A stretch of 64,000 nucleotides of DNA from Promethearchaeota archaeon Loki_b31 (GCA_005222975.1 NJBI01000004.1:1-64000), one strand, 5' to 3'. Positions 1 to 34,500 are shown, numbered from the stretch's first letter. Translations and numbers: made by a program. Notes: generated by a model from the letters alone, not told the origin.

Positions 1-1757
1 ATTATTATTCGGATATCCCCGGAGTATTTTTGACCTATAACAAGACAATCAGCGATCTCAGGTAATTGTTCTACAACATTATAGATTTCTGCAGTACCAA
101 TTCGTACTCCAGAAGGTTTTAAAACTGCGTCCGATCGACCCCAGAAGGTAATACCACCTGTATCGCTATGAATGACTATATAATCGCCATGTCTCCAAAT
201 CATTTTTCCTACGTCTTTATAGTAGTCAAAATAGGCAGCTTTATATTTTGTCATGTTATCGTCATCGCCCCAAAAATAGATTGGCATCGAAGGTACGGGA
301 GCTTCACACACAAGTTCGGCCTGTAAATCTTCAACAGGTTCAGCTTTTTCAGAATACGATTCTACTTTCATTGCTAAAGCACGCCCTTGCAATTCTCCAG
401 AATATACCGGTAAAATAGGTATCGCTCCAGCAAAACAACCGTTAATATCTGTTCCGCCACTGATTGAATTGAAAAAGAGATCTTTTTTAATCTCTCGATA
501 GACATATTCAAAACCTTCAGGAGATAATGTAGATGCAGTTTGCGAGATCTCTCTTAATGCACTTAGGTCATATTTCTCAGCAGGTTTTACCCCAAGTCCC
601 ATTAGGTAATGAATATACGCAGCACTAGTACCAAATATAGTTACCTTATGTTTTTCAATTAATTCAAAAAACCTTAATGGTTCTGGATATAGCGGATTAC
701 CATCATATAAGAATATTGTTGCGCCCGTGGCTAAGGCACTGATAAGCCAGTTCCACATTTTGGCTGGTATAAAGATACCTTATACCATCATCCATGAGGG
801 CGCAGTAATATAATTAATGACATCGCTTCTTTTTACATCAGTAGATAAGATTAATTCTTTTAAATGATTGATCAATACGCCACCAGCGCCTTGAACCATA
901 CACTTTGGTTTCCCCGTTGTTCCTGATGAAAACATCACGTATAAAGGATGATCAAAAGGTAATTGTTCAAATTCAAGACCAGGATCTTCCTCTTTTGAAA
1001 TAAAATCATCCCAATGTACTGCATTTGGGATGTGGCTTATCTCAGGTTTTCCATCAGTGATGTAAGTCGCCACTACTACTTTTTCTATCGAAGGAATAGC
1101 TTCAACCACAGTTTTAGCATTCTCGGTGATATTAAATTCTTTGTCCCTATAGAAATATCCATCAACAGTAAAGAGAACTTTTGGCTCAATTTGTCCAAAA
1201 CGATCGATGACTGCGTTCGGTTGTAATTCTGCGCCACACGATGCCCAAGTTGCGCCAATGGTAGTAGCAGCTAACATTGCAATAGGGGTTTCAATCAAAT
1301 TTGGAATATATGAAACAACTCGATCCCCTACTTTGACACCCATTTCCTTGAGAGATTTTGCTAAGCGTGCAACTACTTTATTTAGTTCGGCATAAGTAAT
1401 TTGCTTCGAAACCTTGGTTTCTCCTTGAAAAACAAAAGCTAATTGGTCATCTTTATACTTCAATAAGTTTTCCGCAAAATTCAATTTTGCTCCGGGAAAC
1501 CATTTAGTTCCTGGGAAAATGTTTAGATCCTCAACCACTCTATCATATATCTTGGAAGCTACAATACCTCCAAAGGCCCACATAGCCGCCCAGAAATCCT
1601 CAATCTTTTCTACAGACCATCTATATAGATCTTTACCTCCCTTAATTTCTTGACCATATTTTTTATTTACATATTCGATAAACTTGGTTATCTCAGCATT
1701 TTTAATCCATTCAGCGGAGGGTTCCCATAATTTTTTTTTATTTGAAATGATTAGCAC
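1..1757 (-). CDS. Acetoacetyl-CoA synthetase (acetoacetate-CoA ligase), interrupted by a 30-nt putative BHB intron at 759-788; 3' end runs off the window
   Basis: N-half has WFPGAKLNFAENLL and the adenylation motif MFSSGTTGKPKC. After the insert the same frame continues without stops to position 1 (MWNWLISALATG...SISGGTDINGCF...WRHGDY...GRSDAVLKPSGVRIGTAEIY). Confidence 0.93.
759..788 (-). other. Putative BHB-type mRNA intron (30 nt) in acetoacetyl-CoA synthetase
   Basis: mRNA CA-UGGA-UG|A-UGGUAUAAGG(UAU)CUUUAUACCA-GCCA-AA|A-UG: 10-bp inner stem, two 3-nt bulges, central helix with one A.G mismatch. Removal gives ...W-M-M-W-N-W. Confidence 0.8.
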
Positions 1758-2085
1758 CTCTTAATTTGTAATCTTTCGACATTATATTTAATTCGTTTAT
1801 ACTAATTGGTTATTGAATATTTCTATTACGATATTTATTCTATTAAATCTTTCTGAATTGCAATATTTAAGTGCTTCATGCAATTAAAATAGTAAAAAAT
1901 TGTTGTTTTCAGTTTTGTATTTAAGGAATTTTCAACAAAAATATTCTATAAAATTTAATATTTTAACACATATTATCATTTTTCGCATTATTTTCTTATT
2001 GTCTTCCAACTTATTAACAGAATTTATAATTCAAATTTAATTCTTAACTTTAAATACAATTACATCTATAGATATTTTAATTGGG

Positions 2086-3105
2086 GTGTTTAATTTTTCA
2101 GAAATGAAGATATTAAAAGAAGGTACAGGAGAGATCTTCTGTAAAAATACGCCTTCTGAAGTGAGAAAATGGACCAGAGAAAATAAATCGCGTGCTTTAA
2201 TAGATAAACGTATGAAAATTAAAGACGCCGTAAAAAAGTATGTTAAAGACGGTGATTATTTAGCTATTGGAGGATTTGGCCACATTAGAATCCCCATGGC
2301 TATAATATACGAAATTGTAAGGCAACGAATTAAAGATTTATCCGTTGCGGGGCATACTGCTGTTCAAGATATTGATATGTTAATGGCCGGTGGTTGTGTA
2401 TCTGCTGTTGATATTGCTTATGTCGTTGGATTTGAGCTTCGAGGCCTTTCTGGAGTTCAGAGACGGCAGTTTGAAAGTGGGCAAGTTAAAAAAACAGATT
2501 ACACTAATGGAGCAATGTCTTATCGTATTCGAGCTGGTGCTCAAGGGGTACCGTTTATTCCAGTTAAAGTGATGCTTGGAACTGATACGATGATGCATTC
2601 CCCTGGTAAAGTTGTTAAGTGCCCATTTACCGGAGAAAAAGTATTGTTACTGCCATCATTAAACCCAGATGTTTGTATAATTCACGCACATAGAGCAGAT
2701 ATGTACGGAAACATTCAGATTGACGGACACATCGTTAAAGACGACTTACAAGCGAGAGCCTCAAAGAGGGTTATAGTCATGTGTGAAGAATTAATAAGCG
2801 ATGACATCATTAGACAAGACCCAGGTAAGACCGTCATTCCTTTTTATATGGTAGATGCTGTTGTAGAACAACCTTGGGGTTCACATCCTGGCAATATGCC
2901 GTATAAATACTATTTTGATCACACATTTACTGAAGATTACTTAACAGTAGGCAGGAACAAAGATCCGAAAGTATTAGAAAAATGGTTAGAAGATTGGGTA
3001 TATAGTCTTGATAGTTTTGACGATTATTTAGTGAAATTAGGACCTAGAAGGCTCTATAACCTTAGAGATGCTGAATTTTTAAGAGAACCAGTGAGGGGAG
3101 ATTAA
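2086..3105 (+). CDS. Family I CoA-transferase subunit A (glutaconate CoA-transferase-like); start may be ATG 2104
   Basis: VKDGDYLAIGGF, GAQGVPFIP, HAHRADMYGN, PWGSHP motifs. Confidence 0.9.
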   Translation: MFNFSEMKILKEGTGEIFCKNTPSEVRKWTRENKSRALIDKRMKIKDAVKKYVKDGDYLAIGGFGHIRIPMAIIYEIVRQRIKDLSVAGHTAVQDIDMLMAGGCVSAVDIAYVVGFELRGLSGVQRRQFESGQVKKTDYTNGAMSYRIRAGAQGVPFIPVKVMLGTDTMMHSPGKVVKCPFTGEKVLLLPSLNPDVCIIHAHRADMYGNIQIDGHIVKDDLQARASKRVIVMCEELISDDIIRQDPGKTVIPFYMVDAVVEQPWGSHPGNMPYKYYFDHTFTEDYLTVGRNKDPKVLEKWLEDWVYSLDSFDDYLVKLGPRRLYNLRDAEFLREPVRGD

Positions 3106-3108
3106 AAA

Positions 3109-3888
3109 ATGACCGCTGAAAATTATTCATTAAGAGAATTAATGGCAGTTGTTGCAGCTAGGCAATTGCAAGATGGAAAAGCAGTAGCAGTGGGAACGGG
3201 GTTACCGCTAGTAGCAACAATGTTTGCTCAGCTAACTCACGCTCCCAATTTGGTTATCTTTTTTGAAGCTGGTGGAATCGCACCACAATTACCTACACTT
3301 CCCGTATCCGTTGGAGATTCACGAACTATCCATAAAGCCTTATGCACAACCACATTAATCGATATTATGGATTCTATGCGTAGAGGTTTTATTGATTACG
3401 CCTTCTTAGGTGGAGCACAAATAGATAGTTATGGTAATCTTAATTCCACTATGATCGGAGACGATTACGAAAAACCTAAAGTGCGATTTCCGGGTTCAGG
3501 AGGTGCAAACGATTTTGGTTCACTCGCTTGGGAAACGCTTATAATAATGGATCGACATAGTCCTCGAAGATTTGTTGAAAAAGTAGATTTCATTACAACA
3601 CCGGGTTTTTTATATGGTCCTGGAGCCAGAGAAGAGGAGGGTTTATCTGAAAATACTGGTCCTTCGCGCGTTATTACAGATTTATGTTTAATGGATTTTG
3701 AACCAGAATCAAAACGAATGAGGTTAATTGCAACTTATCCGGGAATTACGGTTGATGATGTAATAAAAGCAACTGGTTTTGAATTGATTATTGCAGATGA
3801 TGTGGAAATTACAAAACCACCCACTGAGGAGGATTTAAGATTATTGCACGAAGTAATAGACCCTAACGGTTTTGTATTTAAAAAATAA
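3109..3888 (+). CDS. CoA-transferase subunit B (glutaconate CoA-transferase-like)
   Basis: FFEAG catalytic Glu region, FLGGAQIDSYGNLN, PGSGGAND; directly follows subunit A. Confidence 0.9.
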   Translation: MTAENYSLRELMAVVAARQLQDGKAVAVGTGLPLVATMFAQLTHAPNLVIFFEAGGIAPQLPTLPVSVGDSRTIHKALCTTTLIDIMDSMRRGFIDYAFLGGAQIDSYGNLNSTMIGDDYEKPKVRFPGSGGANDFGSLAWETLIIMDRHSPRRFVEKVDFITTPGFLYGPGAREEEGLSENTGPSRVITDLCLMDFEPESKRMRLIATYPGITVDDVIKATGFELIIADDVEITKPPTEEDLRLLHEVIDPNGFVFKK

Positions 3889-15745: not shown

Positions 15746-15909
15746 GTGTTTATCACTAAATTTTAAAATTTATAAATTTTATTCTGTACAAAATCAATAC
15801 ATAATCTATTAGTCTTAAATATAGAAGTTTTTTCTTATATAAGTTTTTTCAATGATTATGAAAATTTAAAAATATAAATATAAAAAAAAATTAATTTTAA
15901 TTTTAATAA

Positions 15910-18063: not shown

Positions 18064-18217
18064 GTTAGATTACCATAATTTTTATATTTCTGTTAAATAA
18101 TTCCATAAATATCTATGGATTAATAATTGTATATTTTTTATAGAATAAATATTCTCACGATAGTTAAAAAAGATTTTTTAACCAAAACATAAATTTAATA
18201 AAAAGTCATTTAATGCA

Positions 18218-18376: not shown

Positions 18377-18437
18377 ACTTATCAATAAACCTATAACTTT
18401 TATAATATTAATTTTTGATTTTTTGTGGATTTGAGCG

Positions 18438-19865: not shown

Positions 19866-20000
19866 CTTTGAACACTGCTATTTGAATTATTATTTACTAA
19901 ATTGGACAAAATAATTAATTAAATTTAATATTGTTTGTACAATTTATATCAATTAAAATATAGTATTTATTACTTTATATTAAAGAAGTTGATAAAAAGG

Positions 20001-21485: not shown

Positions 21486-21584
21486 ACTTATATAAACCTT
21501 ATTCTATTTTCTTTCATTTTTCAATACTGAGTATTTTTTTAGAATTAGAATTATTAAATAATAAAGTGATTGCTAATTGGAGAT

Positions 21585-22220: not shown

Positions 22221-22240
22221 CTTCTCTTTATTAAATTCAA

Positions 22241-24382
22241 TCAAAGTTGTTTAAATTGACGTTTTAAGTACTTAACTTTAAAAGAAGCGAGTCTCCCATT
22301 TTTAATAACGATCTCTCGAAAAGCGCTTTCTGATTTAGGGTTTTTATAGCTCCCTAAGCCCAGTGCAGGTGTTTGAACGACAAAAGGAGCGTTATTTTCA
22401 ATATCTTCTGGATTATTATATTGTTCAGAATAAATATCATAATATATCGCCGCAGGATTTTCTAATTTTTTTAAAATAAAAGGCGATGTGTGTGTGTCGC
22501 CGACTTTAGTCTTTAAATCTTGTGGGTCGCTCAATCTAAATTCTTTTAATTGGTGCGTATGTCCTGAAAGCGTAAGAATACAGAAATCTAAACAAAATTT
22601 AAGAAGTTTCTCCCAGTTTGTTGAGATTGCGCCATATTGCACGTCAAATTTGTTATCAATTCGAGCTAAGGAAAGTTTTTTACCTAACTTTTGAATTAAG
22701 GATTCTTTAAATTCATCGATTTTCGTTATTAATTCTTTTGATGGTTTTGACATTGCATACCGTTTAAGTGCGCTAATCTTTTTTTTTGGATTAATTGGTG
22801 GTCCATGAAGCATAAGGTAAGTATTGTTTTCTGGTTCTATCTTATGATTAATTATATTTTCTAAATATTTAATATGCTTTTCTGAGATTCCAGTAACCGA
22901 TGGATGACCACTGAGAAAATCCATTAATTTTTTAAAAGAATCTGAGCCAGTATTTAAGAAAATAAAATTATTATTTCCTAACTTGATATAATAATCTAAT
23001 GAAGAGTTAATTTCTATCAAATATGCTTTCAAAGCGCTGAAGGTCTTAGTTATTGAACTAATTGGGTTTGCCATTAGCTCTTCGTTCAAAGCGATTACTT
23101 CGCTTTGTAATAAACCTATTTTTCTATATAAATTACCCCACCGAAGGTCGTAGTGAAAAGGTCGATAATCGTGGTTTCCGGGAATAGTAAATATAGGACA
23201 AAGTATTTCTTCTCCAGAAACCATCCCTCTTCTTTTCTCTTGAGGAAAATTTAGCAAGATCTCTTTGAATATGCGCCAATTACTATCCTTATAGTTAAAA
23301 TCTAGTGTTTTTCTTTTTGCCTGGGGTATTTTGGAGAGAATCGCAAAATCTATTAAATCTCCTGTCAATACGACAAAATCTAAATCGTTCTTATTTACTT
23401 TCTTGTTAACGAGCTTAATGAACTTTCTAAAGTTATTGTTAGGGTTTACAAATCGTTTACGAAGTGGTTCAGTACTTTTAATTGGAATTTTATCTTTTGG
23501 TTTTTTTATTAGTAAACGTTGAAAAAATGAAACTGCCTTCGCACCTTGGGCAAGAAGTTCGCCAAGATCTGATTTTCTCACTAAAACATTCCATTTCTTA
23601 ACGATTTCATAAATTCTATCGTTCCGTTCTGCCAAGTGTAAATCTGTCGCGTGAAAGAATTTAAAATCGCTCCATTTATTTTTTGAAACGACGATTGAAT
23701 GATAAGAAACGCGAATTTCCTTATTGGGCATTTCTTGCCAAAGATCAAACATTACAAAATTAAAACTCTCTAAAAATTCCAATACTTCTTTCGATAACTT
23801 GAAATGAATTGTCGCCTTGTAAAATTCATCTAAACCCGAATAAATATTATATTTAATTAAGTAATTTCGAGGACTATAATAACTGTCATATTTAATGTTA
23901 TCAATTTCGCAAGTTTTTACGGGTTCTACCTTTAAAAGAGTCCCTTTTATTAAATCCCCTCTAAATGCTCGCGGCCTTAATGCTTCGATTTTTTCGGCTT
24001 GCACAATATCAAACTTTTTTCCCGTAGAATCTGTAAGCTCCAAAACGGGTGGTAATTCTTCTTCCTTCTTTTTTTTCCGAGTAAATATGCTTTTAATTTT
24101 ATCCCAAATTCTTCTTTTCTTTTTTCTTTCCAATCGTTCTTCTTTCTCTTTTTCGAAATGTGCTTTCAATTTCCACTTGTATTCAAGAATGGGGATAAAG
24201 TTTAACCCATGCTTAATGAACCTCTCGAAATTATCGGTATTTTTTATATTGCTCACAAATAATAAGTTAACTTCAAATTCCTTTTGCTTGAATTTACGAT
24301 CTATATCTAAAAACAGAGGGTGTCCCAAATTTGGGCTTATCAATAATGTCTTTTCGGGTTTAATACTCTCAGCTTCAATCAA
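22241..24382 (-). CDS. Calcineurin-like metallophosphoesterase
   Basis: TDLH, TGDLID, PGNHDY, LHGP, SGHTH. Confidence 0.88.
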   Translation of the reverse strand: MIEAESIKPEKTLLISPNLGHPLFLDIDRKFKQKEFEVNLLFVSNIKNTDNFERFIKHGLNFIPILEYKWKLKAHFEKEKEERLERKKKRRIWDKIKSIFTRKKKKEEELPPVLELTDSTGKKFDIVQAEKIEALRPRAFRGDLIKGTLLKVEPVKTCEIDNIKYDSYYSPRNYLIKYNIYSGLDEFYKATIHFKLSKEVLEFLESFNFVMFDLWQEMPNKEIRVSYHSIVVSKNKWSDFKFFHATDLHLAERNDRIYEIVKKWNVLVRKSDLGELLAQGAKAVSFFQRLLIKKPKDKIPIKSTEPLRKRFVNPNNNFRKFIKLVNKKVNKNDLDFVVLTGDLIDFAILSKIPQAKRKTLDFNYKDSNWRIFKEILLNFPQEKRRGMVSGEEILCPIFTIPGNHDYRPFHYDLRWGNLYRKIGLLQSEVIALNEELMANPISSITKTFSALKAYLIEINSSLDYYIKLGNNNFIFLNTGSDSFKKLMDFLSGHPSVTGISEKHIKYLENIINHKIEPENNTYLMLHGPPINPKKKISALKRYAMSKPSKELITKIDEFKESLIQKLGKKLSLARIDNKFDVQYGAISTNWEKLLKFCLDFCILTLSGHTHQLKEFRLSDPQDLKTKVGDTHTSPFILKKLENPAAIYYDIYSEQYNNPEDIENNAPFVVQTPALGLGSYKNPKSESAFREIVIKNGRLASFKVKYLKRQFKQL

Positions 24383-24546
24383 TTTTTAAAGACCTCTCTT
24401 AAAATTGCTTTTTAATTTAAAAATCAAATTTCAATTCCTATCTATTTACTAAAGAATTGCGATCTAATAAGTTTTTATTTGATCTAAATGAGATTTAATA
24501 TCATGAAAGGATTTCCAAGAACGTGAAGATTTATTTTAGAGAGTTT

Positions 24547-24843
24547 TTAACCGTCTGGGTTGGCGAGATTGACGAATATTACATTATCACCACGTACAAC
24601 GATGTCTCCAAGCGTTTCGTGCTCCTCGTGGAGAGAACCATCCTCATCTATGTATTCAAAAAGCTGAGTTGTTCCTTCTAGATACAGGTTAAGATGTTCG
24701 TCAAATCCTGCCAATTTACCTCGAAATAAACGATTCCTCTTAACTTTAATTAATATGATCTTATTCACAGAATTCTTTAAATAATCAATAGGTCTTTGTG
24801 GCCTATTTTGTGGGTAATTTCTTCTTTCCATTTTATATAACAC
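24547..24843 (-). CDS. Sm/Lsm RNA-binding protein
   Basis: RPIDYLKNSVNK...GKLAGFDEHLNLYL (Sm1), VVRGDNV (Sm2). Confidence 0.93.
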   Translation of the reverse strand: MLYKMERRNYPQNRPQRPIDYLKNSVNKIILIKVKRNRLFRGKLAGFDEHLNLYLEGTTQLFEYIDEDGSLHEEHETLGDIVVRGDNVIFVNLANPDG

Positions 24844-24972
24844 TAAAAATAATATTTCAAAAAAATCTATACTAATAATAATTAAAATTAAAGTTCAGAA
24901 TTAAAACCTTTTGATTTATTTATTCATCGTAATGTGGATATAAATATCCCACTATTATCTCTAATTTTTTAT

Positions 24973-25929
24973 TTATAGTTTTTCTTTAAAGGAAAAGTTA
25001 TTAATGTTTTCTTGTAGTTTCAAATAGCTTTCTTCCACTAAATCTATCATTAATGCATTCTCCTTTTCAAAGATTTCATCAAAAAATTGTTCAAAATTTA
25101 TTGAATGAATTAAGGAATGGCAATTTTTGCACAAACAAATACAATCTTCATTCTTTAAAATAGTAATTATATTATTTATAGGAAGTTTAGATAGAACTTC
25201 CCATTTAAATTCTTTTATCTTTGGGTTTCGATGATGAAACTCTAAAGCAGGTAACTTGTCATTAATTCTTATGTTTCGACAACCAATGCAAGCACCATTA
25301 TATAAGATTTCAATAATTATCCTCTTTTTGATCCATTTCTTAATTCTATATTTAATTCTTGCTCTATGTTGAGCTCCTTTAAGACATTCAGATCGATATT
25401 TAATATTACTTTTGATCTCTTCATAAACTATGGTATCAATTTCTCCAACATTATTAATTGATAATATCTCTGATAGGATAATCTCCTTAAATTTATCATA
25501 ATTAGTCATTTCTTCACAACTATGACAGTTTCTACATAAAACTTGAAGATTCTCGTTTTTAATAATTCTAATTATCTCATCTATATTTCTCCCTCTTAAG
25601 TCTCTCCATGAATACTTTTTGGAGTACGGATTCAAGTGATGAAATTCCAACGCAGGTAAAATTTGAAGGCCACTATGGCAATTGTGACATCTTTTATCAA
25701 ATAGTAAGGTAATTATTTTAATTTGTTTCTTAAAGTTATTAATTGCATGCATTTTTTGTCTGCAATCTTCGCAAATGGACCTCAAACGCCCTTGTCTTTT
25801 TCTAAAATATTCATGAGACTTGATCTCATGACATTTTCCACATTCCTTTCTTTCTCCATCATTGTAAAGTTTATTTCTTCTTGGATTCTTATTCTTTATG
25901 GTCACATTTTTAAGAAAAATAAAAACCAA
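24973..25929 (-). CDS. Tandem HNH-type (His-Cys) endonuclease-like protein
   Basis: N-terminal CxxC...CxxC, then two copies of CxxC...ALEFHH...LCxNCH. Confidence 0.75.
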   Translation of the reverse strand: MVFIFLKNVTIKNKNPRRNKLYNDGERKECGKCHEIKSHEYFRKRQGRLRSICEDCRQKMHAINNFKKQIKIITLLFDKRCHNCHSGLQILPALEFHHLNPYSKKYSWRDLRGRNIDEIIRIIKNENLQVLCRNCHSCEEMTNYDKFKEIILSEILSINNVGEIDTIVYEEIKSNIKYRSECLKGAQHRARIKYRIKKWIKKRIIIEILYNGACIGCRNIRINDKLPALEFHHRNPKIKEFKWEVLSKLPINNIITILKNEDCICLCKNCHSLIHSINFEQFFDEIFEKENALMIDLVEESYLKLQENINNFSFKEKL

Positions 25930-26024
25930 AATAATAACATGGTCCTAGATGGATTTTTAAAATATGATTTATTAAGAATCAAAAAACATATATGGAATAT
26001 ATTCCTAGAATCTTTTATATATAA

Positions 26025-26147
26025 AGGCTCGTGGCGAAGCATGGATATCGCAGCTGCCTCCTACATAATGTGCATGGAGAAAGCAGAAGATCGGGGGTTC
26101 AATATAATATGCGCTTCGCGTTTCTTGAACATATCCCCTCGGGCCTG
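26025..26147 (+). tRNA. tRNA-Arg(CCU) with two BHB introns (26064-26081 at 37/38; 26103-26132 at 58/59)
   Basis: Acceptor AGGCTCG/CGGGCCT, D-stem GCGA/TCGC, anticodon CCT, T-arm GGGGG-TTCAA^AT-CCCCT, discriminator G; central helices CUCC/GGAG and GUUC/GAAC. Confidence 0.93.
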
Positions 26148-26282
26148 CTTTTTTATTTTTTAAATATTTAATGACAAATCAAACCACAAATCGTTAACTA
26201 CGATATTACTTTATTTACATAACGTAAATTTATATAATCACTATTCACAATTATAAATTGCCTAAAAATTAAGGTGAAATTT

Positions 26283-28019
26283 ATGCCAAAAAGAATATTA
26301 AGAGTAAATATGAATAAACTTGAAGCCAAATTTGAGGATTTTCCTCAAGATTACATGGCTCTTGGAGGTCGTTCGCTTACTTCGACGATTGTAGCAAACG
26401 AGGTACCCCCTCTTTGCCATCCTTTGGGTCCAAACAATAAACTTGTATTTGCACCCGGTATTGTTACGGGAACTTCAGCGCCTACATCAGGAAGATTATC
26501 AGTAGGGGCAAAATCACCCTTAACGGGAGGAATTAAGGAAGCAAACGCAGGTACAACTTTCGCTCAGAGGTTAGCTCGATTACAAATCGCTGCAATAATA
26601 GTAGAAGGAAAGCACGAAGGAAGCGACTATTACCTTCTAAAAATAACTAACGATGGCATTGAATTTATAAATGCAAATAAGTGGTCTGGAAAAGGACTTT
26701 ATCAAGTCTATAAAGACCTTTATAAGGAATTTGGAGCCAAAGTAAGTATCAGTAGTTGTGGAATCGCTGCAGAAATGTTAGGTACGGCTTCTGGGGTTTG
26801 TTTTAACGATCCTGAAGGTTTACCTAGTAGATACGCGGGAAGAGGCGGACTTGGAGCCGTTATGGCGTCAAAAGGATTGAAGTTTATAGTTGTTGACGAT
26901 GCTGGAGCACCAGGTGTTGAAATTAAAAACCCTGAAGTTTTCAAACAAGGGGCGAAAAAGTTAATGGACGCACTTACTTCTCACGATGTGACAAAACCTG
27001 GAGGTGCGCTAAATACTTATGGTACGGGTGTTTTAATTAATATCATTAACGAGGCAGGAGGGTTGCCCCAGAAAAACTTCTCATCTGGTCAAGACGATAG
27101 ATCTGAAAACATTTCAGGTGAGAAAAAGGCGGAAGAAATAAAAAAGAGAGGCGGCGTTCGTCCTCATTTCTGTAGTCCAGGTTGCGTTATTCAATGCTCT
27201 GAAGTGTGGACAAAAACGGGCGGTAAAGATCCAGTTGGCGTTTTAGAATACGAATCTGTCTGGGCTTTAGGAGCAAATTGTAGCATTTACAACTTAGACG
27301 ATGTTGGTGAGCTAAATCGTGCGTGTAACGACTTAGGACTTGACACGATTGAAATGGGGGCCACAATTGCCGTAGCGATGGAAGGTGGATTAGTCAAATT
27401 TGGAGACGCAAAGGGAGCGTTAAAGCTCATGGAAGAAATTAGAAAGAAGACTCCGACTGGAAGGATATTAGCAAATGGTACGGGATTTACTGGAAAAGCT
27501 ATGGGCGTAACAAGAGTCCCAGTAGTAAAAAACCAAGCGCTACCGGCTTACGATCCTAGAGCAATTAAAGGTATTGGTGTAACATATGCAACAACTCCAA
27601 TGGGAGCAGACCACACGGCAGGGTACGCCATAGCAACCGAAATTATGGGAGTAGGCGGTACCGCAGATCCTAGAGACCCTAAAAAAGCGGAATTATCGCG
27701 GAATTTACAGTTAGCAACTGCAGTAATTGATGCTACGGGTTATTGTCTATTTACCGCTTTTGCCGTATTAGATATCCCCGAAGGTTTAGAAGGAATGGTA
27801 GAATCCGTAAATGGAGTATTGGGAATTAATTTAACTGTTAACGACATCGCGGGAGTAGGAAAGTCAATAATTGATACAGAACTAAAGTTCAATAAGGCAG
27901 CAGGATTTACTAGCGCAGACGATAGATTGCCTGAATTCTTCCTAAAAGAACCACTGCCACCACACAATGAAGTGTTCGATGTACCAGATGACGAGTTAGA
28001 TAGCGTCTTTGAATCTTAA
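26283..28019 (+). CDS. aor: Tungsten-dependent aldehyde:ferredoxin oxidoreductase family
   Basis: GAKSPLTGGIKE, AGRGGLGAVM, CSPGCVIQC, EYES, GLDTIE, YDPR. Confidence 0.92.
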   Translation: MPKRILRVNMNKLEAKFEDFPQDYMALGGRSLTSTIVANEVPPLCHPLGPNNKLVFAPGIVTGTSAPTSGRLSVGAKSPLTGGIKEANAGTTFAQRLARLQIAAIIVEGKHEGSDYYLLKITNDGIEFINANKWSGKGLYQVYKDLYKEFGAKVSISSCGIAAEMLGTASGVCFNDPEGLPSRYAGRGGLGAVMASKGLKFIVVDDAGAPGVEIKNPEVFKQGAKKLMDALTSHDVTKPGGALNTYGTGVLINIINEAGGLPQKNFSSGQDDRSENISGEKKAEEIKKRGGVRPHFCSPGCVIQCSEVWTKTGGKDPVGVLEYESVWALGANCSIYNLDDVGELNRACNDLGLDTIEMGATIAVAMEGGLVKFGDAKGALKLMEEIRKKTPTGRILANGTGFTGKAMGVTRVPVVKNQALPAYDPRAIKGIGVTYATTPMGADHTAGYAIATEIMGVGGTADPRDPKKAELSRNLQLATAVIDATGYCLFTAFAVLDIPEGLEGMVESVNGVLGINLTVNDIAGVGKSIIDTELKFNKAAGFTSADDRLPEFFLKEPLPPHNEVFDVPDDELDSVFES

Positions 28020-28031
28020 ATACCTAAAAAG

Positions 28032-28316
28032 ATGACAATTTTAGTCAAACTATTCGGTGATTTAGCAAAGAAAATATCAAAACAAAAATCTCCAAAGAGC
28101 CCAACTAACATGGAAATAAGCACTGAAGGAATAGAGCGAGTTTCTGACATTCTAAAGAAGTTTTCAATCGAGGAAAGTGAAACCAGCCACATCTTTGTAA
28201 ATGGAGTGTACTCTGGATTTAACAAAAAAGTAAACGATGGCGATAGAGTTGGAATATTCGCTGGAAACCAAGCTTTATTGTATAAATGGTATTTTACACG
28301 AGCCGAAGATGACTAA
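28032..28316 (+). CDS. MoaD/ThiS-like beta-grasp protein lacking C-terminal Gly-Gly
   Basis: VKLFGDL...IFVNG...VNDGDRVGIF; directly follows aor. Confidence 0.8.
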   Translation: MTILVKLFGDLAKKISKQKSPKSPTNMEISTEGIERVSDILKKFSIEESETSHIFVNGVYSGFNKKVNDGDRVGIFAGNQALLYKWYFTRAEDD

Positions 28317-28488
28317 CAATCAATTCTGGATAGAAATATAATTGAAATTTATTTAAACTATTTCTTTTTTTTTTAATTTTCTTGAACTAAATTCGAATTC
28401 TCTATTTTGTATAATTTTATATTTTTTCATAATAATTAGATTTCCATACAATATCTAACTAAGACGCTCCTTTTTTAGAAAAATTTAG

Positions 28489-28920
28489 ATGCATTCTCAA
28501 ATTATATTAATTAAAAACACGAAGGGTGTAAAAATGTTAGAAGTGTATAATAATAAACATAAAAATATAGGATATATAGATGGAAAAAACTATTTTAATA
28601 AAAAAAAGAAAAAAATTGGGTTTTTAGAAGGAAACATGGTTAAAAACAAAAGGGGATTTCCTCTATTGAAACTTGATAAGAATGATAATATTTTAATTTT
28701 TGGAGATGAAAAGGTTGGATTTATTTTGGATTCTAAAATTAGTGATGATGATGGAACCATATGCGAAATTTCAAAAGAGAAAGGTGAACTTCTCGATCCT
28801 GAGGGGGAGGTTCTTTTATCTCTGGAAGGTAACTATGAAACATTAGAATTAATGGATTATTTCGGAATTGCTGGGACTTATCTTAAATCCAGATGGAGCG
28901 AGAAGGTATTTGGGCGTTAA
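28489..28920 (+). CDS. Hypothetical protein with short beta-repeats
   Basis: Repeated (K)IG(Y/F) motifs; true start probably at MLEV. Confidence 0.6.
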   Translation: MHSQIILIKNTKGVKMLEVYNNKHKNIGYIDGKNYFNKKKKKIGFLEGNMVKNKRGFPLLKLDKNDNILIFGDEKVGFILDSKISDDDGTICEISKEKGELLDPEGEVLLSLEGNYETLELMDYFGIAGTYLKSRWSEKVFGR

Positions 28921-28940
28921 GTTTTAATTTGTGCTTCACC

Positions 28941-29516
28941 CTAGTGAAGTAATTTTTGTTTTCTTAGTTTTAACAAATCTTCTTTTAGGAGCGAATACAC
29001 ATAATTATCCAAATATTCTCCGTTAACATACATATCTTTCTTAAATGTAGCTACGCGAGTAAAACCGTTTTTCTCTGCGCAACGCCACGACCCTTTATTA
29101 ACAACAAGTATAGAGGCTTTAAGTTTAAAAATGTTTAGTTCGTTAAATGCATATTCAACTAATAATCTTGTAGCTTCTTCTCCAATTTTTTGCCCCCAAT
29201 AATCGGGCTCTCCAATAAGCAACCCTAAATATGCTTGTTGGTTGTACCAGTTGATATCTGACACTTCTCCATAGCCAATTATCTTTTTATCTTTTTTATG
29301 CCAAATTTCGAAACTTACCTCATTTTTAAGTCTTTTATCCGAAGGCTCTAGGTATTTCTTCATTTCTTCTACAGTACGAGGTAAAATGTTCCGAGAGTAT
29401 ATTCGCACTTTTGGGTTATTTTCCCATTTTGCATACAATTTAATATTTTCAATATTTAATGGGACGAAATCTATAGTTTCTCCTTCGATAAAGGTAAAAA
29501 TATCTTGATTCTTCAT
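28941..29516 (-). CDS. GNAT N-acetyltransferase (RimJ/RimL-like)
   Basis: IGEPDYWGQKIG, NKGSWRCAEKNGF. Confidence 0.9.
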   Translation of the reverse strand: MKNQDIFTFIEGETIDFVPLNIENIKLYAKWENNPKVRIYSRNILPRTVEEMKKYLEPSDKRLKNEVSFEIWHKKDKKIIGYGEVSDINWYNQQAYLGLLIGEPDYWGQKIGEEATRLLVEYAFNELNIFKLKASILVVNKGSWRCAEKNGFTRVATFKKDMYVNGEYLDNYVYSLLKEDLLKLRKQKLLH

Positions 29517-29548
29517 AATTCTTAATGATATAAATGGTAAATATTATT

Positions 29549-30106
29549 TTATTCCTTTGATTTGAGCCAATCTTCTTTTAAATATCTATACATCCTCGCA
29601 TCGACATATTCTCCATCGATATATATCATCTTCTTCTCAGCGCCTTCTAACACAAAACCATCTTTTTCAGCCACACTCCACGAACCTATATTAGGTTCAA
29701 ATATTCCCGCGTAAATCTTATGAAAATTGAGCTCTCCAAATCCATAATCGATTAAAAGTTTCGATGCTTCGGTTCCTAAGTTTTTATTCCAATATTTAGG
29801 CTCGCCTATTGACATAAATGTATTGGCGTGTCTATTTATCCAATCAATATGTCCATATCCACAAGTTCCAATTGGCACTTTATCCTTTTTATGATAAATT
29901 TCAAAAGTTACAAATTCTTTTATCCCTTCCCTTGGTTCAAACCATTTTTTTGATTCTTCAACGGTAATTGGTATTGTATTACGAGCATATCTTCTTACGC
30001 GAGGGTCGTTTATCCATTTCGCATAAAGATTAACATGTTCTAAATTAATAGCAACCAAGTCAATATTTTCTCCTAAAATAAAGGGAAAAACTTCTGGTTT
30101 TTCCAT
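29549..30106 (-). CDS. GNAT N-acetyltransferase (RimJ/RimL-like)
   Basis: IGEPKYWNKNLG, NIGSWSVAEKDGF. Confidence 0.9.
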   Translation of the reverse strand: MEKPEVFPFILGENIDLVAINLEHVNLYAKWINDPRVRRYARNTIPITVEESKKWFEPREGIKEFVTFEIYHKKDKVPIGTCGYGHIDWINRHANTFMSIGEPKYWNKNLGTEASKLLIDYGFGELNFHKIYAGIFEPNIGSWSVAEKDGFVLEGAEKKMIYIDGEYVDARMYRYLKEDWLKSKE

Positions 30107-30165
30107 CTTCTATAACCTCATAAGTTTTCAGTTTAAATTATTCATTTGATTTTTTATAATATTAA

Positions 30166-30726
30166 TTATTTATTCGTTTGTTCCCATTCTTCTCTAAATA
30201 TACAAAATTTCAATTCGTCGACATACTCTCCGTCGAAATATGTTTGATTTTTCAATGCTAATTCGAGTTTCATTCCAGTTTTCTCAAGCATACGACAAGC
30301 TCCCTTATTTGGCCTTAAAGCTGAAGCTGTAATTTTAACTAAGTTTAATTCTTCAAATCCGTATTTGATCATTAGTTTTGCTGCTTCTGTACCCAAATTG
30401 TTTCCCCATAATTCTTTTTCTCCTATTAAGAAGCCTAAATCTGCTGCGTGATTTATATAATTAATATGATGGAACTCTACAAAACCAACAATTTTATCAA
30501 GTTCTTTATGATAAATTTCAAAAAAAATATCTCTCATTGGTCGCTCTTGTTTTTGCTCTAAACGCTTCTTTAGATCTTCAGGAGATACGGGAAAAACATT
30601 TCGGGCGTATAATCTCGTTTTAGGGTCGTTCGCCCATCTAGCGTGGATTCTTGCGTTTTCGGGATTAAATGGGAGAAGTTCTATGCGTTCCCCCTCAATA
30701 AATGTTAATCGCGTATTTTTTTCCAT
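30166..30726 (-). CDS. GNAT N-acetyltransferase (RimJ/RimL-like)
   Basis: IGEKELWGNNLG, NKGACRMLEKTG. Confidence 0.9.
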   Translation of the reverse strand: MEKNTRLTFIEGERIELLPFNPENARIHARWANDPKTRLYARNVFPVSPEDLKKRLEQKQERPMRDIFFEIYHKELDKIVGFVEFHHINYINHAADLGFLIGEKELWGNNLGTEAAKLMIKYGFEELNLVKITASALRPNKGACRMLEKTGMKLELALKNQTYFDGEYVDELKFCIFREEWEQTNK

Positions 30727-30755
30727 AATTTACCCGCCAATCCTTCACTTAATAA

Positions 30756-31352
30756 TTAATTTTCATCTTTCATTTTCCAATCTCTTTTAAACAATGCGAA
30801 TTTGTGGATATCGTGATATTGCCCGTCAACATACATTTCTTCTTTTAAAACGCCTTCTTTTTTAAATCCTAATTTTTCAGCTGCACGAAGAGACCTTTTA
30901 TTTGGTGTAAAAACTCCAGCAAAAATTTTATGAAAATTCAATTCAGTAAAACCATAATTGATCATTAAATTAGAAGCTTCACCAGCTATACCCTTCCCCC
31001 AATATTCAGGTTCTCCTATTGTTAAAAATATATTAGCATTTCTACTGACCCAATTAATGTGATTAAATCCTATACTACCGATTGGCCGTTTTGCGTGCTT
31101 ATGATAAACTGTAAAGACAATGAATTCCCTCATTTGTCTGTCTGGTGGGGGTTCGAACCATTTTTTTACTTCTTCGAGAGTTTTTGGCCACATATTTCGA
31201 GAATAATGACGGACTTTTGGGTCATTCATCCATTTACAAACTAAATTAGCCCATTTAGAATTTCCAGCAACTAAATCGATGGTCTCTCCATTTATAAAAG
31301 GAAATACATCTTCTTCTTCCTTATCTTCTTTATCTTTTTTTTCTTCTGTCAT
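30756..31352 (-). CDS. GNAT N-acetyltransferase (RimJ/RimL-like)
   Basis: IGEPEYWGKGIA, NKRSLRAAEKLGF. Confidence 0.9.
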   Translation of the reverse strand: MTEEKKDKEDKEEEDVFPFINGETIDLVAGNSKWANLVCKWMNDPKVRHYSRNMWPKTLEEVKKWFEPPPDRQMREFIVFTVYHKHAKRPIGSIGFNHINWVSRNANIFLTIGEPEYWGKGIAGEASNLMINYGFTELNFHKIFAGVFTPNKRSLRAAEKLGFKKEGVLKEEMYVDGQYHDIHKFALFKRDWKMKDEN

Positions 31353-31487
31353 GTTTTAGCCTCAAATAAAATTCATATTTCATTGAATTTGATTAAGAAA
31401 TATGAATGAGAGTAAAAATTAATATTTTTACATTTAAAATAAAAAAAAAATAGAAAATTAAATAATTTTTTACAGTAAAATTGAAAT

Positions 31488-31541
31488 CTACAATAATTTC
31501 ATTGCCAGAGTCATGTCGTTAACAGTTAATTTCTTTCTGCC
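31488..31541 (-). repeat. Intron-less duplicate of the histone gene 3' end (att-like direct repeat)
   Basis: GGC AGA AAG AAA TTA ACT GTT AAC GAC ATG ACT CTG GCA ATG AAA TTA TTG TAG = GRKKLTVNDMTLAMKLL*, the same peptide as spliced 34258-34341 with only synonymous differences. Confidence 0.92.
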
Positions 31542-32323
31542 AATTCCTTTAAATTTATGAAATTAAAATAAAAAATTCTTTCTCCCGTTAATTTAGAATA
31601 GAAGTAAGTTAAGCTAATCTTAAGAAAATAGAGTTTGTGCCTGCTCTAAAGCAAATCTTTTCCAGTTTATTTATTAAAATTACAAAAAAATTGAGTCGCC
31701 TTTCCTATTGAATAAAAATTTATAATAAACGGTTGGATACTAAATTTTATGGATTAGGATGTGAAACCCTTAGTTCCGATTGTTAAGGTTTGATCGGGTT
31801 GATCTAAAAGTTGTTCTTGTTTGAAAAATCGTTTCGTATTCGATTGAGAAAAGTTTTTTGTCCTGAACTAACGCGATTAAATTCTACTAAATACACCTTA
31901 ACTAACTCCTTATATAATGTTTTACCGAACTTGGTTTCTATGAGTTTTATTTTCATCACCTTAAATTCTTCTGTTGGCTAATATTTGCGATCCCTTTCGC
32001 AATATACTCTAAGAATTGATATATATTCCCGTTTCGAGAATCGAGCATGAGCAATTGGCACTTTGCTTTTTGCTGGATTTCTTCGGAACAAAAAGACAGA
32101 AAATCGGCAATGTCTTCTACGTGAAAATAATTCCTGCCCTTTTCGTCCTCAAATTAGATGTTATATCCCTTATCTAAGGCGAGCGTTGACAAAAACTAAA
32201 ATAGAAGCCCTTTTTGATTTTAGTTTGGACTAATCTGAGCCCTATTTTATTACTAAATTCGGAATTTACGATTTTAATTGCAATCTAATTTTTAGAAACG
32301 AAAATCTTTTTATTCCGATGAAT

Positions 32324-32641
32324 TCAATCAACGATTTTATAAAATACATCTCTTACTGACGCAATCAAAATACATTCTGAGCCCCCGCCGTCAATCCTCA
32401 AATTACTAATTACGTAAGGTCTATTTGAAGTGCCTTGCCCGACACATCTCCCCGAATTTATTAAGTCGATCCAATCGTTATCGTCGTCAATTAGGATGGG
32501 TGCTGATGGAACCGCGTTTGAAGTTTCTGCCTCCATTTCGCTGGATTTATAGGCACCTGTAGTACTCACAATTGATAACAAGGGTATACACGCTATTATA
32601 AATATAACGCTAACCAAGAAAAAAATCTTAAAAGTTTTCAT
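32324..32641 (-). pseudogene. Truncated secreted protein (N-terminus of a NosD/beta-helix-type surface protein)
   Basis: Signal peptide plus PILIDDDNDW...GQGTSNRPYVISNLRIDGGG, then a premature TGA and further stops. Confidence 0.6.
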
Positions 32642-33045
32642 AAAAATATAAGTCAGGCTATCGTACTTAAAGAAAAACTCGACTTGTTTCTACTCGAAAA
32701 GGATGAGTTTTTCTTTTTGATCGATTAATTAAATTAACTATTGATAAACGAGCTAAATCCTATAAATTTGAATCCAAAATTAAAAAAAAATAAAAGTTCA
32801 AGAGGGGTTGATATAAAAAGGAAAAATCCCGGCGATACATTAAACCGGCTAAGTGAAAAGATTTAAATACTGCGAAATAATTTCTATTCATAGAAAGATA
32901 AAATTCGAACAAAACGATTCTTTTGGATTTTAATCTATCACTAAGTTAGCTAGATCTGAAGTTTAAAATAAGCGTAAAAAAATAAAGATTAAGATAAGGA
33001 TAAAATAAAAAACGAAATTGAAATGAGATAGGGAAAAAATAACCG

Positions 33046-33157
33046 TGACTCCTGCGCCACCCTGGATTTTTGTCTTTTGGTAGTGCGTAAAGCACTCATC
33101 TAATACTCCCCCTATTTTGTTTCTGACCTTCTTATTAGGTCGAGGCAGCAGGAGTCG
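33046..33157. other. GC-rich structured element (candidate ncRNA or cis-element)
   Basis: Closing stem GACTCCTGC-GCC / GGC-A-GCAGGAGTC; internal hairpins AGTGC-GTAAA-GCACT and GACCT-TCTTATT-AGGTC. Confidence 0.5.
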
Positions 33158-33249
33158 TCTTTTTCTTTCATTTTCTTTTCGTTGCTTAATAGGAAAAATA
33201 AAAACTATAAAACTTTTTCTTTAAATAACCTCTTTCGTAACATATTAAC

Positions 33250-33828
33250 ATGAAAGAAGATACAGCAGTCGTGAAGATTAAGTTTTACGACCACGGGCTC
33301 GGAAGAGAGCAAGTTATTTACGGAGAGGTAAAAGCGAGCAAGATAGATCGGTTCGAAACCAACGAAGATTCTTGGATTACATTGACCGACTCTAATAGAT
33401 CGCTTATCGTACCTAAGATAGATGTCGCGTGCATAAGCGAGTTCAAAGAACTCGGTGAGCTAGACGGTCATGAGAAAGAGTTAAATATTGCTTTTGAGTT
33501 TAACGGACCCCAACACTATAAATTGAGCCATTGGATGGAGGTATACGGATTAAGCGAAAGCGTTGCGAGAAAAAGGTTTTATATTCAAATTATTAACGAT
33601 CTTAACAAACTAAGGGAATGTCAAAAGAAAGATACGGTATTAATCGTTCTATCCTCTTTGGATAATCCTAGTGACTGGCAAGACATCATAGTTCATCAAT
33701 ACGAACTTTGGACGGGTAAAAAAGCTCCAGTAAAACACCCATTAGATTACGAAAGTGTCCTTAAATTGATATCAGAAGAAGATATTGGAACCTTGAAGAT
33801 TAAATTTTTAAAAAATTTCTCCGGTTAA
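33250..33828 (+). CDS. Hypothetical protein (island)
   Basis: 192-aa ORF, no recognised motif. Confidence 0.65.
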   Translation: MKEDTAVVKIKFYDHGLGREQVIYGEVKASKIDRFETNEDSWITLTDSNRSLIVPKIDVACISEFKELGELDGHEKELNIAFEFNGPQHYKLSHWMEVYGLSESVARKRFYIQIINDLNKLRECQKKDTVLIVLSSLDNPSDWQDIIVHQYELWTGKKAPVKHPLDYESVLKLISEEDIGTLKIKFLKNFSG

Positions 33829-33908
33829 TTTTAAATTAAGTTAGTCTTATATTTATATGAGAATACTTAATAACATATTAAACAGAACTTAAGCGAGCGC
33901 ATATTACT

Positions 33909-34193
33909 ATGGATGAAATTAAAAGGATCAAAAATATTAATATAGATGAAATCAAACGGATGGCTAAGTTTGTTAATGATAATTACCTGACGGACTGCAT
34001 TGGTAATAAGGAGAATTGTTTTTGCAAAGTTTTCTACGACAACAGAATTTTATTCTGCGAATTTCCTGCTTATTGTGCTCGTTTATTAATTAATAAGGAA
34101 AATGGATTGCTCAACGAACTGGTTGATGAAATATGCGAAGAGAGAAGGGAAGAAGCGATATATTGGAATTTTGTTAAGAGAGATCAGGAATAA
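33909..34193 (+). CDS. Small Cys-containing hypothetical protein (island)
   Basis: 94-aa ORF with several Cys. Confidence 0.55.
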   Translation: MDEIKRIKNINIDEIKRMAKFVNDNYLTDCIGNKENCFCKVFYDNRILFCEFPAYCARLLINKENGLLNELVDEICEERREEAIYWNFVKRDQE

Positions 34194-34257
34194 ACAGAAT
34201 AAAAAAAAAAATTAAATATTTTTTAACTCATTGTCGTACAATCATTCGACTTTAATT

Positions 34258-34500
34258 CTACAATAATTTCATTGCCAAAGTCATGTCGTTGACGGTAAGT
34301 ATAAAGATTTAAAGTTAAATACTAAAAATTTTCTTTCTGCCGGCATGTCGAGTCATTTCTAATGCTTTATTTGTTACTCCTCTAGCAGCTTTCTCTAAAT
34401 AATCAATAAGAGCGTCTACTGCTTCACGAGCAACCATTTCAGCGCCGTTATCTTTCATTAACTTTCGAACTGGTGACCAGGCAAATACTTTTTTAGCCAT
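34258..34500 (-). CDS. Archaeal histone (HMf-like, 70 aa after splicing), join(34500..34331,34300..34258)
   Basis: Spliced product MAKKVFAWSPVRKLMKDNGAEMVAREAVDALIDYLEKAARGVTNKALEMTRHAGRKKLTVNDMTLAMKLL; GGAGG SD upstream; T-rich tract downstream. Confidence 0.93.
34301..34330 (-). other. Putative BHB-type mRNA intron (30 nt) in the histone gene
   Basis: mRNA AG-AAAG-AA|A-AUUU...AAAU-CUUU-AU|A-CU: 4-bp helix AAAG/CUUU flanked by 3-nt bulges AAA and AUA; contains two in-frame UAA. Confidence 0.88.

What the first reader, a model, noticed from the sequence alone, without database searches (positions are those of the whole stretch)
759..34330. Possible genome-wide population of short BHB introns shared between mRNAs and tRNAs
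Seen in sequence: within 34 kb there are four BHB-type inserts (synthetase 30 nt, tRNA 18 nt and 30 nt, histone 30 nt). They are unrelated in sequence but share a structure. Both mRNA inserts are a multiple of 3, carry in-frame stops and sit in the most conserved motif of the host protein. Inference: two in about 50 genes implies many more genome-wide, including stop-free ones I cannot detect by eye. That would be an overlooked splicing layer in the closest prokaryotic relatives of eukaryotes, reminiscent of the non-spliceosomal, tRNA-ligase-dependent HAC1/XBP1 splicing.
Basis: inference. Interest (0 to 1): 0.9.

Follow-up and report, generated by a model that had tools for sequence, protein, structure and literature searches.

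The report
tRNA-type mini-introns inside Asgard protein genes
In this Loki-type Asgard archaeon, two protein genes and one tRNA gene in the window carry 18-30-base inserts shaped like archaeal tRNA introns, and the same kind of insert interrupts at least ten other protein genes elsewhere in the genome. This means messenger RNAs here are almost certainly cut and rejoined by the tRNA-splicing enzymes, which in the papers I could search is reported for only one archaeal gene (cbf5).

Summary
All four inserts are real.
- Acetoacetate-CoA ligase: 30 nt, 759-788(-).
- Histone: 30 nt, 34301-34330(-).
- tRNA-Arg(CCU), 26025-26148(+): 18 nt at 37/38 and 30 nt in the T-loop.

Removing each at the cut sites set by bulge-helix-bulge (BHB) geometry restores exactly what intron-less orthologues encode.

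The ligase insert occurs in 14 of 42 Promethearchaeota orthologues. It is always 30 nt with an in-frame TAA, and its helices are kept by compensatory changes. The histone insert occurs in 3 of 30 orthologues. 28 of the 30 genus tRNA orthologues aligned keep both introns.

For 11 inserts bounded by homology alone (29-33 nt, nine in other contigs), BHB geometry beat a mirrored control in 11/11 (Fisher p about 1e-17). The genome has alpha- and beta-type EndA genes and RtcB.

Limits:
- No RNA evidence; the runs laid did not cover these genes.
- Motif-only genome scans show no enrichment.
- No stop-free introns surfaced in the window.
- An unbiased 104-kb sample gave no further mRNA intron, so "2 per 50 genes" overstates density. 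My rough estimate is some tens genome-wide.

This scan flagged the same phenomenon in other pieces of this genome. Verdict: a new variant of a known kind (the cbf5 mRNA intron).

The parts
789..1757 (-). Acetoacetate-CoA ligase, exon 1 (ends ...APSWM)
   Evidence: NF002937 profile positions 3-320; orthologues.
759..788 (-). 30-nt BHB-type mRNA intron in the ligase. Central helix UGG/CCA (3 of 4 pairs), 10-bp inner hairpin, 3' bulge AA|a, in-frame TAA.
   Evidence: p = 0.008; z = -2.5. Absent from 18 of 20 genus orthologues. Present in 14 of 42 wider orthologues with compensatory changes.
1..758 (-). Ligase exon 2 (starts MWNWLIS...; runs off the window and contig start)
   Evidence: NF002937 profile positions 320-565.
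26025..26148 (+). tRNA-Arg(CCU) gene with two introns
   Evidence: 28-species alignment A1 has 95% of cells paired against 33-47% in slid controls.
26064..26081 (+). 18-nt canonical 37/38 tRNA intron; central helix CUCC/GGAG
   Evidence: helix 4, 97% paired. Absent in G018.
26103..26132 (+). 30-nt non-canonical tRNA intron in the T-loop (58/59); central helix GUUC/GAAC, outer helix 4 bp
   Evidence: central and outer helices 99% paired, and all 7 inner pairs show changes on both sides. Absent in G054.
34331..34509 (-). Histone exon 1 (ends ...RHAGRKK, last codon split AA|A)
   Evidence: Archaeal histone profile positions 3-51 of 60.
34301..34330 (-). 30-nt BHB mRNA intron in the histone. Central helix AAAG/CUUU 4/4, bulges AA|A and AU|a, inner AUUU/AAAU, two in-frame TAA stops.
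   Evidence: p = 0.012. Present in G000, G002 and G015 only, out of 30 orthologues, and nearly identical among them.
34258..34300 (-). Histone exon 2 (LTVNDMTLAMKLL*)
   Evidence: Stays open in the spliced frame in G002 and G015 despite substitutions.
31489..31541 (-). Relic intron-less copy of the histone 3' end (GRKKLTVNDMTLAMKLL*), left behind by the 2.8-kb insertion
31542..34257 (.). Remainder of the about 2.8-kb block (about 31539-34330) that is absent from the five closest relatives. The block carries the histone intron and new exon 2 at one end and is bounded by a 12-nt direct repeat.
   Evidence: DNA joint 31529->34330 in run X1. No family hits for its ORFs.

Best explanation
These are archaeal bulge-helix-bulge introns of one size class (about 29-33 nt in mRNAs and in non-canonical tRNA positions; 18 nt at the canonical tRNA site).

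Proposed mechanism. In the primary transcript, the last exon-1 bases pair with four bases near the 3' end of the insert. This central helix is flanked by two 3-nt bulges on opposite strands, by an inner hairpin made of the insert, and by a short exon-exon helix. The heterotetrameric (alpha-beta)2 splicing endonuclease EndA cuts after the second base of each bulge. RtcB then joins the exons and probably circularises the intron. For mRNAs this restores the reading frame inside a conserved motif; unspliced transcripts end at a stop codon or shift frame.

Population. The elements form a genome-wide set, which I estimate roughly at some tens in 3.5 Mb. They are gained and lost on short time scales among species of one Promethearchaeota genus.

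Shown: anatomy, exact frame restoration, conservation and covariation of the structure, presence/absence polymorphism, and presence of the enzymes.

Inferred: that EndA and RtcB act on these mRNAs, that splicing is efficient, and how the elements spread.
For: Exact restoration of orthologue sequence at BHB-defined cut sites, for 11 inserts with L = 29-33 fixed by homology and 1-4 placements each. Real geometry scored 13-18 against 6-14 for the control, 11/11, Fisher p 9e-18.

Ligase intron:
- Same site in 14 of 42 orthologues, always 30 nt and always with TAA.
- Central helix 100% paired and inner helix 95% paired, with 3 pairs showing compensatory change; slid controls give 27-49%.
- The genes are otherwise open: G016 has a single TAA in 585 codons.

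Histone: exon 2 stays open in the spliced frame in three species while diverging.

tRNA: both introns are kept in 28 of the 30 genus orthologues aligned, with covariation. This shows the same machinery handles a 30-nt non-canonical BHB in this lineage.

Enzymes: two EndA paralogues. One resembles crenarchaeal catalytic subunits and has Tyr/His/Lys; the other lacks the His. RtcB is present. Asgard EndA is reported as (alpha-beta)2 with the L1 loop that confers broad specificity (PMC5829648).

Some interrupted genes are essential: aIF2-gamma P-loop and proteasome alpha.
Against: - No spliced read or contig was obtained.
- The histone BHB is AU-only and has an MFE no better than shuffles.
- The ligase central helix has one mismatch next to the 5' bulge.
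- Three of the 11 inserts score weakly (p 0.05-0.12).
- The reported rps11 insert does not fit the strict 4-bp geometry.
- Genome-wide motif scans show no excess of real over mirrored geometry, so BHB alone carries little information in this AT-rich genome.
- Four of the 11 loci came from readers who were looking for BHBs, which is a selection bias.
Confidence: 0.8

Rival explanations
1. Translational bypassing (hopping), as in T4 gene 60 or the mitochondrial 'byp' elements. The ribosome takes off at a codon before the insert and lands after it, so no RNA splicing is needed.
For: The inserts are short hairpins with a stop codon soon after the 5' boundary. The ligase insert is flanked by ATG...ATG, which could serve as matched take-off and landing codons (4 equivalent placements).
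Against: Matched take-off and landing codons need a direct repeat of at least 3 nt, i.e. 4 or more placements. Only 2 of 11 inserts have this; the histone has 2 placements, and the AAA+ gene and second histone have 1. The same size class with the same geometry sits in tRNAs, which are not translated. The cut sites predicted by BHB geometry, not codon matching, give the exact junctions.
Confidence: 0.04
2. Insertion scars or miniature mobile hairpin elements that disrupt genes. The interrupted genes would be pseudogenes or expressed as split or truncated proteins, and the BHB resemblance would be incidental.
For: Presence/absence polymorphism among close relatives. The histone insert arrived in G000 together with a 2.8-kb foreign block. 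Motif-only scans show that BHB-like folds are common by chance.
Against: Downstream exons stay open and conserved in many species: 14 ligase genes and 3 histones. Essential single-copy genes are affected (aIF2-gamma, psmA). Insert length is confined to 29-33 nt, and frame restoration is exact at BHB cut sites in 11/11. Compensatory changes keep the hairpin. Histone exon 2 is only 13 codons and has no start codon.
Confidence: 0.06
3. Assembly or binning artefact: the inserts or chimeric joins were created during metagenome assembly.
For: The genome is a 99-contig MAG with 6% contamination. The histone locus differs from the dominant DNA form in run X1.
Against: The same inserts occur at the same sites in independently assembled genomes from other studies. 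A minor DNA contig in X1 confirms the window's arrangement at 31508-32462.
Confidence: 0.01
4. The inserts are removed at the RNA level, but by another nuclease/ligase pair or by a regulated, stress-dependent pathway in the HAC1/XBP1 style, rather than constitutively by EndA.
For: Weak or relaxed BHBs (ligase, histone, aIF2-gamma, rps11) might need a cofactor. Regulation of histone or recombinase genes by splicing is conceivable.
Against: No IRE1-type KEN nuclease domain was found (the genome is 92% complete and the search had no positive control). The geometry is that of EndA substrates. Essential housekeeping genes argue for constitutive removal.
Confidence: 0.07

Closest known systems
BHB intron in the cbf5 (pseudouridine synthase) pre-mRNA of Crenarchaeota (Watanabe 2002, Yoshinari 2006, both cited in PMC5829648; Yokobori 2009, PMC2738675)
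   Same: A protein-coding archaeal transcript carries a BHB motif at the exon-intron boundaries. It occurs in lineages with heteromeric EndA, and the intron is gained and lost among relatives.
   Different: That case is one gene in another phylum. Here at least a dozen different genes in one Asgard genome are affected, with a uniform 29-33-nt size, several introns in one gene (three in a thiolase-like gene, by paralogue alignment), and targets in catalytic motifs. cbf5 itself was not examined here.
Non-canonical and multiple tRNA introns of Thermoproteales and Asgard archaea (PMC5829648; bioRxiv 10.64898/2026.10.13.758758)
   Same: The tRNA-Arg(CCU) here has a canonical plus a T-loop intron. 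Standard tRNA finders miss it. Introns are repeatedly gained and lost within the genus.
   Different: Those studies concern tRNA genes only; the 2026 preprint does not contain the word mRNA. Here the same size class and geometry is found in coding sequences.
HAC1/XBP1 unconventional mRNA splicing in eukaryotes
   Same: Non-spliceosomal removal of a short intron from an mRNA, with exons joined by an RtcB-type ligase, and a frame-restoring or frame-changing outcome.
   Different: There the cleavage is by IRE1 at twin stem-loops, not by the tRNA endonuclease at a BHB. It affects one regulatory target and is stress-induced. No IRE1-type domain was found here.
Inteins and homing introns (analogy only, from general knowledge)
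   Same: Insertion into the most conserved motifs of conserved genes, patchy phylogenetic distribution, and conserved flanking exon DNA in element-bearing alleles.
   Different: No endonuclease is encoded in a 30-nt element, and no homing mechanism is known for BHB introns.

Membership tests
Archaeal BHB intron (EndA substrate) | Two 3-nt bulges on opposite strands separated by a 4-bp helix, flanked by helices | tested here: met
   Histone 4/4 central pairs; tRNA introns 4/4; ligase 3/4 (relaxed HBh'-like). 9 of the 11 homology-bounded inserts have 4/4.
Archaeal BHB intron (EndA substrate) | Cutting after the second base of each bulge yields the functional mature sequence | tested here: met
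   Junctions equal intron-less orthologues: WMMWNW, GRKKLTVND, T-loop UUCAAAU.
Archaeal BHB intron (EndA substrate) | Structure conserved in evolution with compensatory change | tested here: met
   Not informative for the histone intron, which is nearly identical in its 3 carriers.
Archaeal BHB intron (EndA substrate) | Host encodes a broad-specificity EndA and an RNA ligase | tested here: met
   Two EndA genes, alpha-like with Tyr/His/Lys and beta-like without the His; RtcB. The L1 loop itself was not examined here.
Archaeal BHB intron (EndA substrate) | Excision and exon ligation observed in RNA | not testable with these tools
cbf5-type pre-mRNA intron | Located in the cbf5 gene of Desulfurococcales/Sulfolobales | tested here: not met
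   Different genes and a different phylum (Promethearchaeota).
HAC1/XBP1-type splicing | IRE1 kinase-RNase cleaving twin stem-loops | tested here: inconclusive
   PF06479 was not found in a 92%-complete genome, and the search had no positive control. The fold is a BHB, not twin 7-nt loops.
Translational bypass element | Matched take-off and landing codons flanking the gap | tested here: not met
   Only 2 of 11 inserts have a boundary repeat of 3 nt or more.
Group I / group II self-splicing intron | Catalytic RNA core of hundreds of nucleotides | tested here: not met
   The inserts are 18-33 nt; there are no Rfam hits.

The most novel reading that the evidence does not exclude
Promethearchaeota carry a mobile population of about 30-nt BHB mini-introns that move between tRNA genes and the conserved motifs of protein genes and spread between species. 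Spread is sometimes as an intron-plus-3'-exon cassette, as the 2.8-kb insertion in the G000 histone gene suggests. On this reading, the archaeal lineage closest to eukaryotes already has routine, protein-enzyme-catalysed mRNA splicing affecting essential genes.
Probability: 0.45. Interest if true: 0.9.

Novelty: new variant of a known kind. Interest (0 to 1): 0.8.

Why it matters
- If the mRNAs are spliced, gene calling in these Asgard genomes mis-annotates dozens of genes as split, truncated or pseudogenes. These include a translation factor, a proteasome subunit and histones.
- It would turn a single-gene curiosity (cbf5) into a regular layer of gene expression in the closest prokaryotic relatives of eukaryotes. 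That bears on how interrupted genes and enzyme-catalysed RNA ligation predate the spliceosome.
- The presence/absence polymorphisms among species with 90-98% identical genes offer a natural system for studying how BHB introns are gained.

Tried and rejected
**Detection tools**
- ARAGORN (with and without introns) and Rfam (gathering threshold and E up to 10) find no tRNA in the window. The tRNA appeared only after BHB-guided removal of the T-loop insert.
- My first BHB scanner used the wrong stagger and found nothing. I kept it afterwards as a mirrored control.

**Motif-only genome scans.** All gave real counts about equal to control counts, so BHB alone cannot count the population in 33%-GC DNA:
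- strict and relaxed BHB counts;
- ORF-fusing deletions with open-frame and codon-usage filters;
- constrained folding energies;
- a no-start-codon filter;
- bulge-composition and length filters.
- Best-of-many searches around known loci picked wrong placements.

**RNA evidence**
- Four runs were laid on 15500-35000, two RNA, one labelled RNA that is probably DNA, and one DNA. There was no RNA cover over the histone intron or the tRNA, and the ligase lay outside the stretch.

**Other**
- The GC-rich element at 33040-33160 could not be turned into a tRNA by removing one or two BHB inserts.
- ORFs of the 2.8-kb block have no Pfam or PHROG family.
- Two scripts failed for machine reasons, so a full tRNA intron census was not completed. 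ARAGORN counted 20 output lines (about the number of tRNAs) without the intron option and 36 with canonical-loop introns allowed.
- rps11 (lead e1-5670235): a 31-nt deletion restores RRKGGHRGRR, but the strict 4-bp geometry scores only 12.
Full report
**Organism and machinery**

The window is the first 64 kb of contig C83 of a 3.52-Mb, 99-contig genome (33% GC, 92% complete). Its closest public relatives are MAGs labelled Promethearchaeota/Promethearchaeia, the Loki-type Asgard archaea.

The genome has two EndA-domain genes of about 200 codons.
- One best matches the catalytic subunits of crenarchaeal heterotetrameric enzymes (3p1z_B, 2cv8, 2zyz_B). In the pairwise alignment it keeps the Tyr, His and Lys positions.
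- The other lacks the His.

I read this as an alpha plus a beta subunit. That agrees with the published statement that Asgard archaea have (alpha-beta)2 EndA with the broad-specificity L1 loop (PMC5829648). RtcB is present.

**The observation**

*Ligase.*
- The minus-strand ORFs 780..1757 and 3..758 are two halves of acetoacetate-CoA ligase. They match profile positions 3-320 and 320-565.
- Against PDB 4wd1 the read-through protein has exactly ten extra residues between WM and MWN.
- With the correct BHB stagger, the best-scoring BHB near the break is the 30-nt deletion 759-788. In that stagger the central helix lies 5' of each bulge, as in a 37/38 tRNA intron.
- The deletion gives SWMMWNW.

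*Histone.*
- The gene (34509 down to 34258) reads HAGRKK, then 30 nt with two TAA stops, then LTVNDMTLAMKLL*.
- The top BHB there is the 30-nt deletion 34301-34330, with a 4/4 central helix.

*tRNA.*
- It was invisible to ARAGORN and Rfam until I removed candidate BHB inserts one at a time.
- Deleting 26103-26132 (central helix GUUC/GAAC, outer helix 4 bp) lets ARAGORN find a tRNA at 26025-26148 with a second, 18-nt intron.
- I place that intron at 37/38, which gives U33-CCU-A37, so tRNA-Arg(CCU).

**Comparative evidence**

*Ligase.*
- Of 20 orthologues in the genus, 18 read APSWMMWNW without interruption. These include the closest ones (98%, 96% and 95% identical).
- G016 has a 30-nt insert at the same site, with a G-C to A-U exchange in the hairpin and its own TAA.
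- In a wider sample, 14 of 42 orthologues carry the insert, always 30 nt. The central helix is paired in 100% of cells and the inner helix in 95%. Three pairs show changes on both sides. Slid controls give 27-49%.
- Apart from the TAA inside the insert, G016's gene is open over 585 codons.

*Histone.*
- 3 of 30 orthologues (G000, G002, G015) have the insert. It is nearly identical among them, while exon 2 differs yet stays open in the spliced frame.

*tRNA.*
- 28 of the 30 genus orthologues aligned keep both introns.
- The T-loop BHB's central and outer helices are paired in 99% of cells, and all seven inner pairs show compensatory change.
- One species lacks the canonical intron and another lacks the T-loop intron.

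**Is BHB geometry at insert boundaries more than chance?**

Motif-only scans say nothing either way. A control with the stagger mirrored gives the same counts at every threshold. This holds with ORF-fusion, codon-usage, length, energy and bulge-composition filters.

The informative test fixes the boundaries by homology. A BHB-blind tblastn of all long ORFs against the genome found collinear split matches whose extra DNA clusters at 28-32 nt, plus in-frame 10-codon gaps with stops.

For 11 inserts I allowed only deletions that restore a stated conserved peptide. This left 1-4 placements each and a single length of 29-33 nt.
- The two window genes.
- Five inserts found blind: proteasome alpha, ABC ATPase Walker B, LsrF-type aldolase GRNIFQ, a thiolase-like gene, and a second histone.
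- Four leads from other readers: AAA+ ATPase, hydrolase HPHPQYGGNM, chelatase NPEEGELRPQ, and aIF2-gamma GHVDHGKTT.

Real geometry scored 13-18 against 6-14 for the mirrored control, higher in all 11. Per-locus p ranged from 1e-4 to 0.12, and Fisher's combined p was 9e-18.

A consensus emerges. The first intron base is A (9 of 11) or U. The 3' bulge is [A/U]N|a in 9 of 11. The inner hairpin is 22-26 nt.

**How many?**

Comparison of the window with five relatives of 90-95% DNA identity covered 55.6 kb. Among 26-36-nt indels, only the ligase insert had intron character. The histone insert is part of a larger insertion. No stop-free candidates appeared.

Six rule-chosen 20-kb samples from other contigs covered 103.7 kb. 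They gave no mRNA intron and one polymorphic 31-nt insert, which on inspection lies in the D-arm region of another interrupted tRNA gene.

So the window is richer than average. Zero in 104 kb puts an upper 95% bound of about 100 on introns that are absent from at least one of the five relatives. The tested and reported cases (more than 20) set the floor. "Some tens" is my estimate. This is inference, not a count.

**RNA evidence**

None was obtained. Two metatranscriptome runs hold parts of the stretch but not the histone intron or the tRNA, and the ligase lay outside the stretch laid.

**Mechanism**

See Best explanation. Translational bypassing is the most interesting rival. It fails because most inserts lack matched flanking codons and because the same elements sit in tRNAs.

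**Literature**

Coding-sequence BHB introns are described only for cbf5 in Crenarchaeota in the papers I could search. A 2026 preprint on heavily interrupted Asgard tRNA genes does not mention mRNAs. Other windows of this same genome were flagged for the same phenomenon in this scan. I used those notes as leads and tested most of them.

**Side finding on origin**

Relative to its five closest relatives, G000 has an insertion of about 2.8 kb (about 31539-34330).
- It begins exactly at the histone intron site.
- It carries the intron and a new exon 2.
- It is bounded by a 12-nt direct repeat.
- It leaves the old exon 2 as a relic at 31489-31529.

The dominant DNA form in run X1 joins 31529 to 34330. 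This looks like acquisition of an intron-bearing 3' end together with foreign DNA. Its nature is unresolved.

Noticed in passing
window 31489-34341: A block of about 2.8 kb, absent from the five closest relatives, starts at the histone intron site. It brings the intron plus a replacement exon 2, is flanked by the 12-nt direct repeat tttctttctgcc, and leaves the original exon 2 as a relic. It has no integrase, and its ORFs match no known family.
   Followed up: partly
window 33040-33160 (wider 32777-33187): A GC-rich element with a 9-bp terminal helix (gactcctgc/gcaggagtc) lies inside the inserted block. Copies at 76-89% identity lie at other loci of G017 and G021. It has no Rfam hit, and removing one or two BHB inserts does not turn it into a tRNA.
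   Followed up: partly
L209:1189-1229 (G015:C233) and L210 about 1247-1287 (G056:C4): Orphan copies of the histone 3' exon (TDNDMALAMKLM*) sit without an upstream histone body in two relatives. They may be relics like the one in G000.
   Followed up: partly
L216:8293-8460 (G000:C14:28293-28460), minus strand: Another interrupted tRNA gene (T-loop GGTTCGATTCC visible). It carries a 31-nt hairpin insert in the D-arm region that one close relative lacks. It was found in the BHB-blind indel sample.
   Followed up: partly
L081 (G018) and L082 (G054), tRNA-Arg(CCU) orthologues: G018 lacks the 37/38 intron but keeps the T-loop intron. G054 keeps the 37/38 intron but lacks the T-loop intron. These are independent losses or gains within one genus.
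   Followed up: yes
alignment A2 (ligase site, window about 789-810 and 730-758): Intron-bearing ligase alleles share nearly identical exon DNA on both sides of the insert, while intron-less alleles vary at synonymous sites. This is compatible with common descent of the bearing alleles, co-conversion, or constraint from exon pairing.
   Followed up: no
window 45034-45118 (+): Weak sub-threshold Rfam match to group II intron domains D1-D4 (22 bits, E 1.4).
   Followed up: no
genome-wide: Among ORF-fusing deletions with a perfect central helix, length 57 shows 79 real against 39 control hits. This may be a repeated 57-nt element.
   Followed up: no
window about 17393-17443: In-frame 12-nt and 30-nt length variation of a GAA/GAG (Glu-rich) repeat between G000 and a relative. 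It has no BHB and is ordinary repeat slippage.
   Followed up: yes
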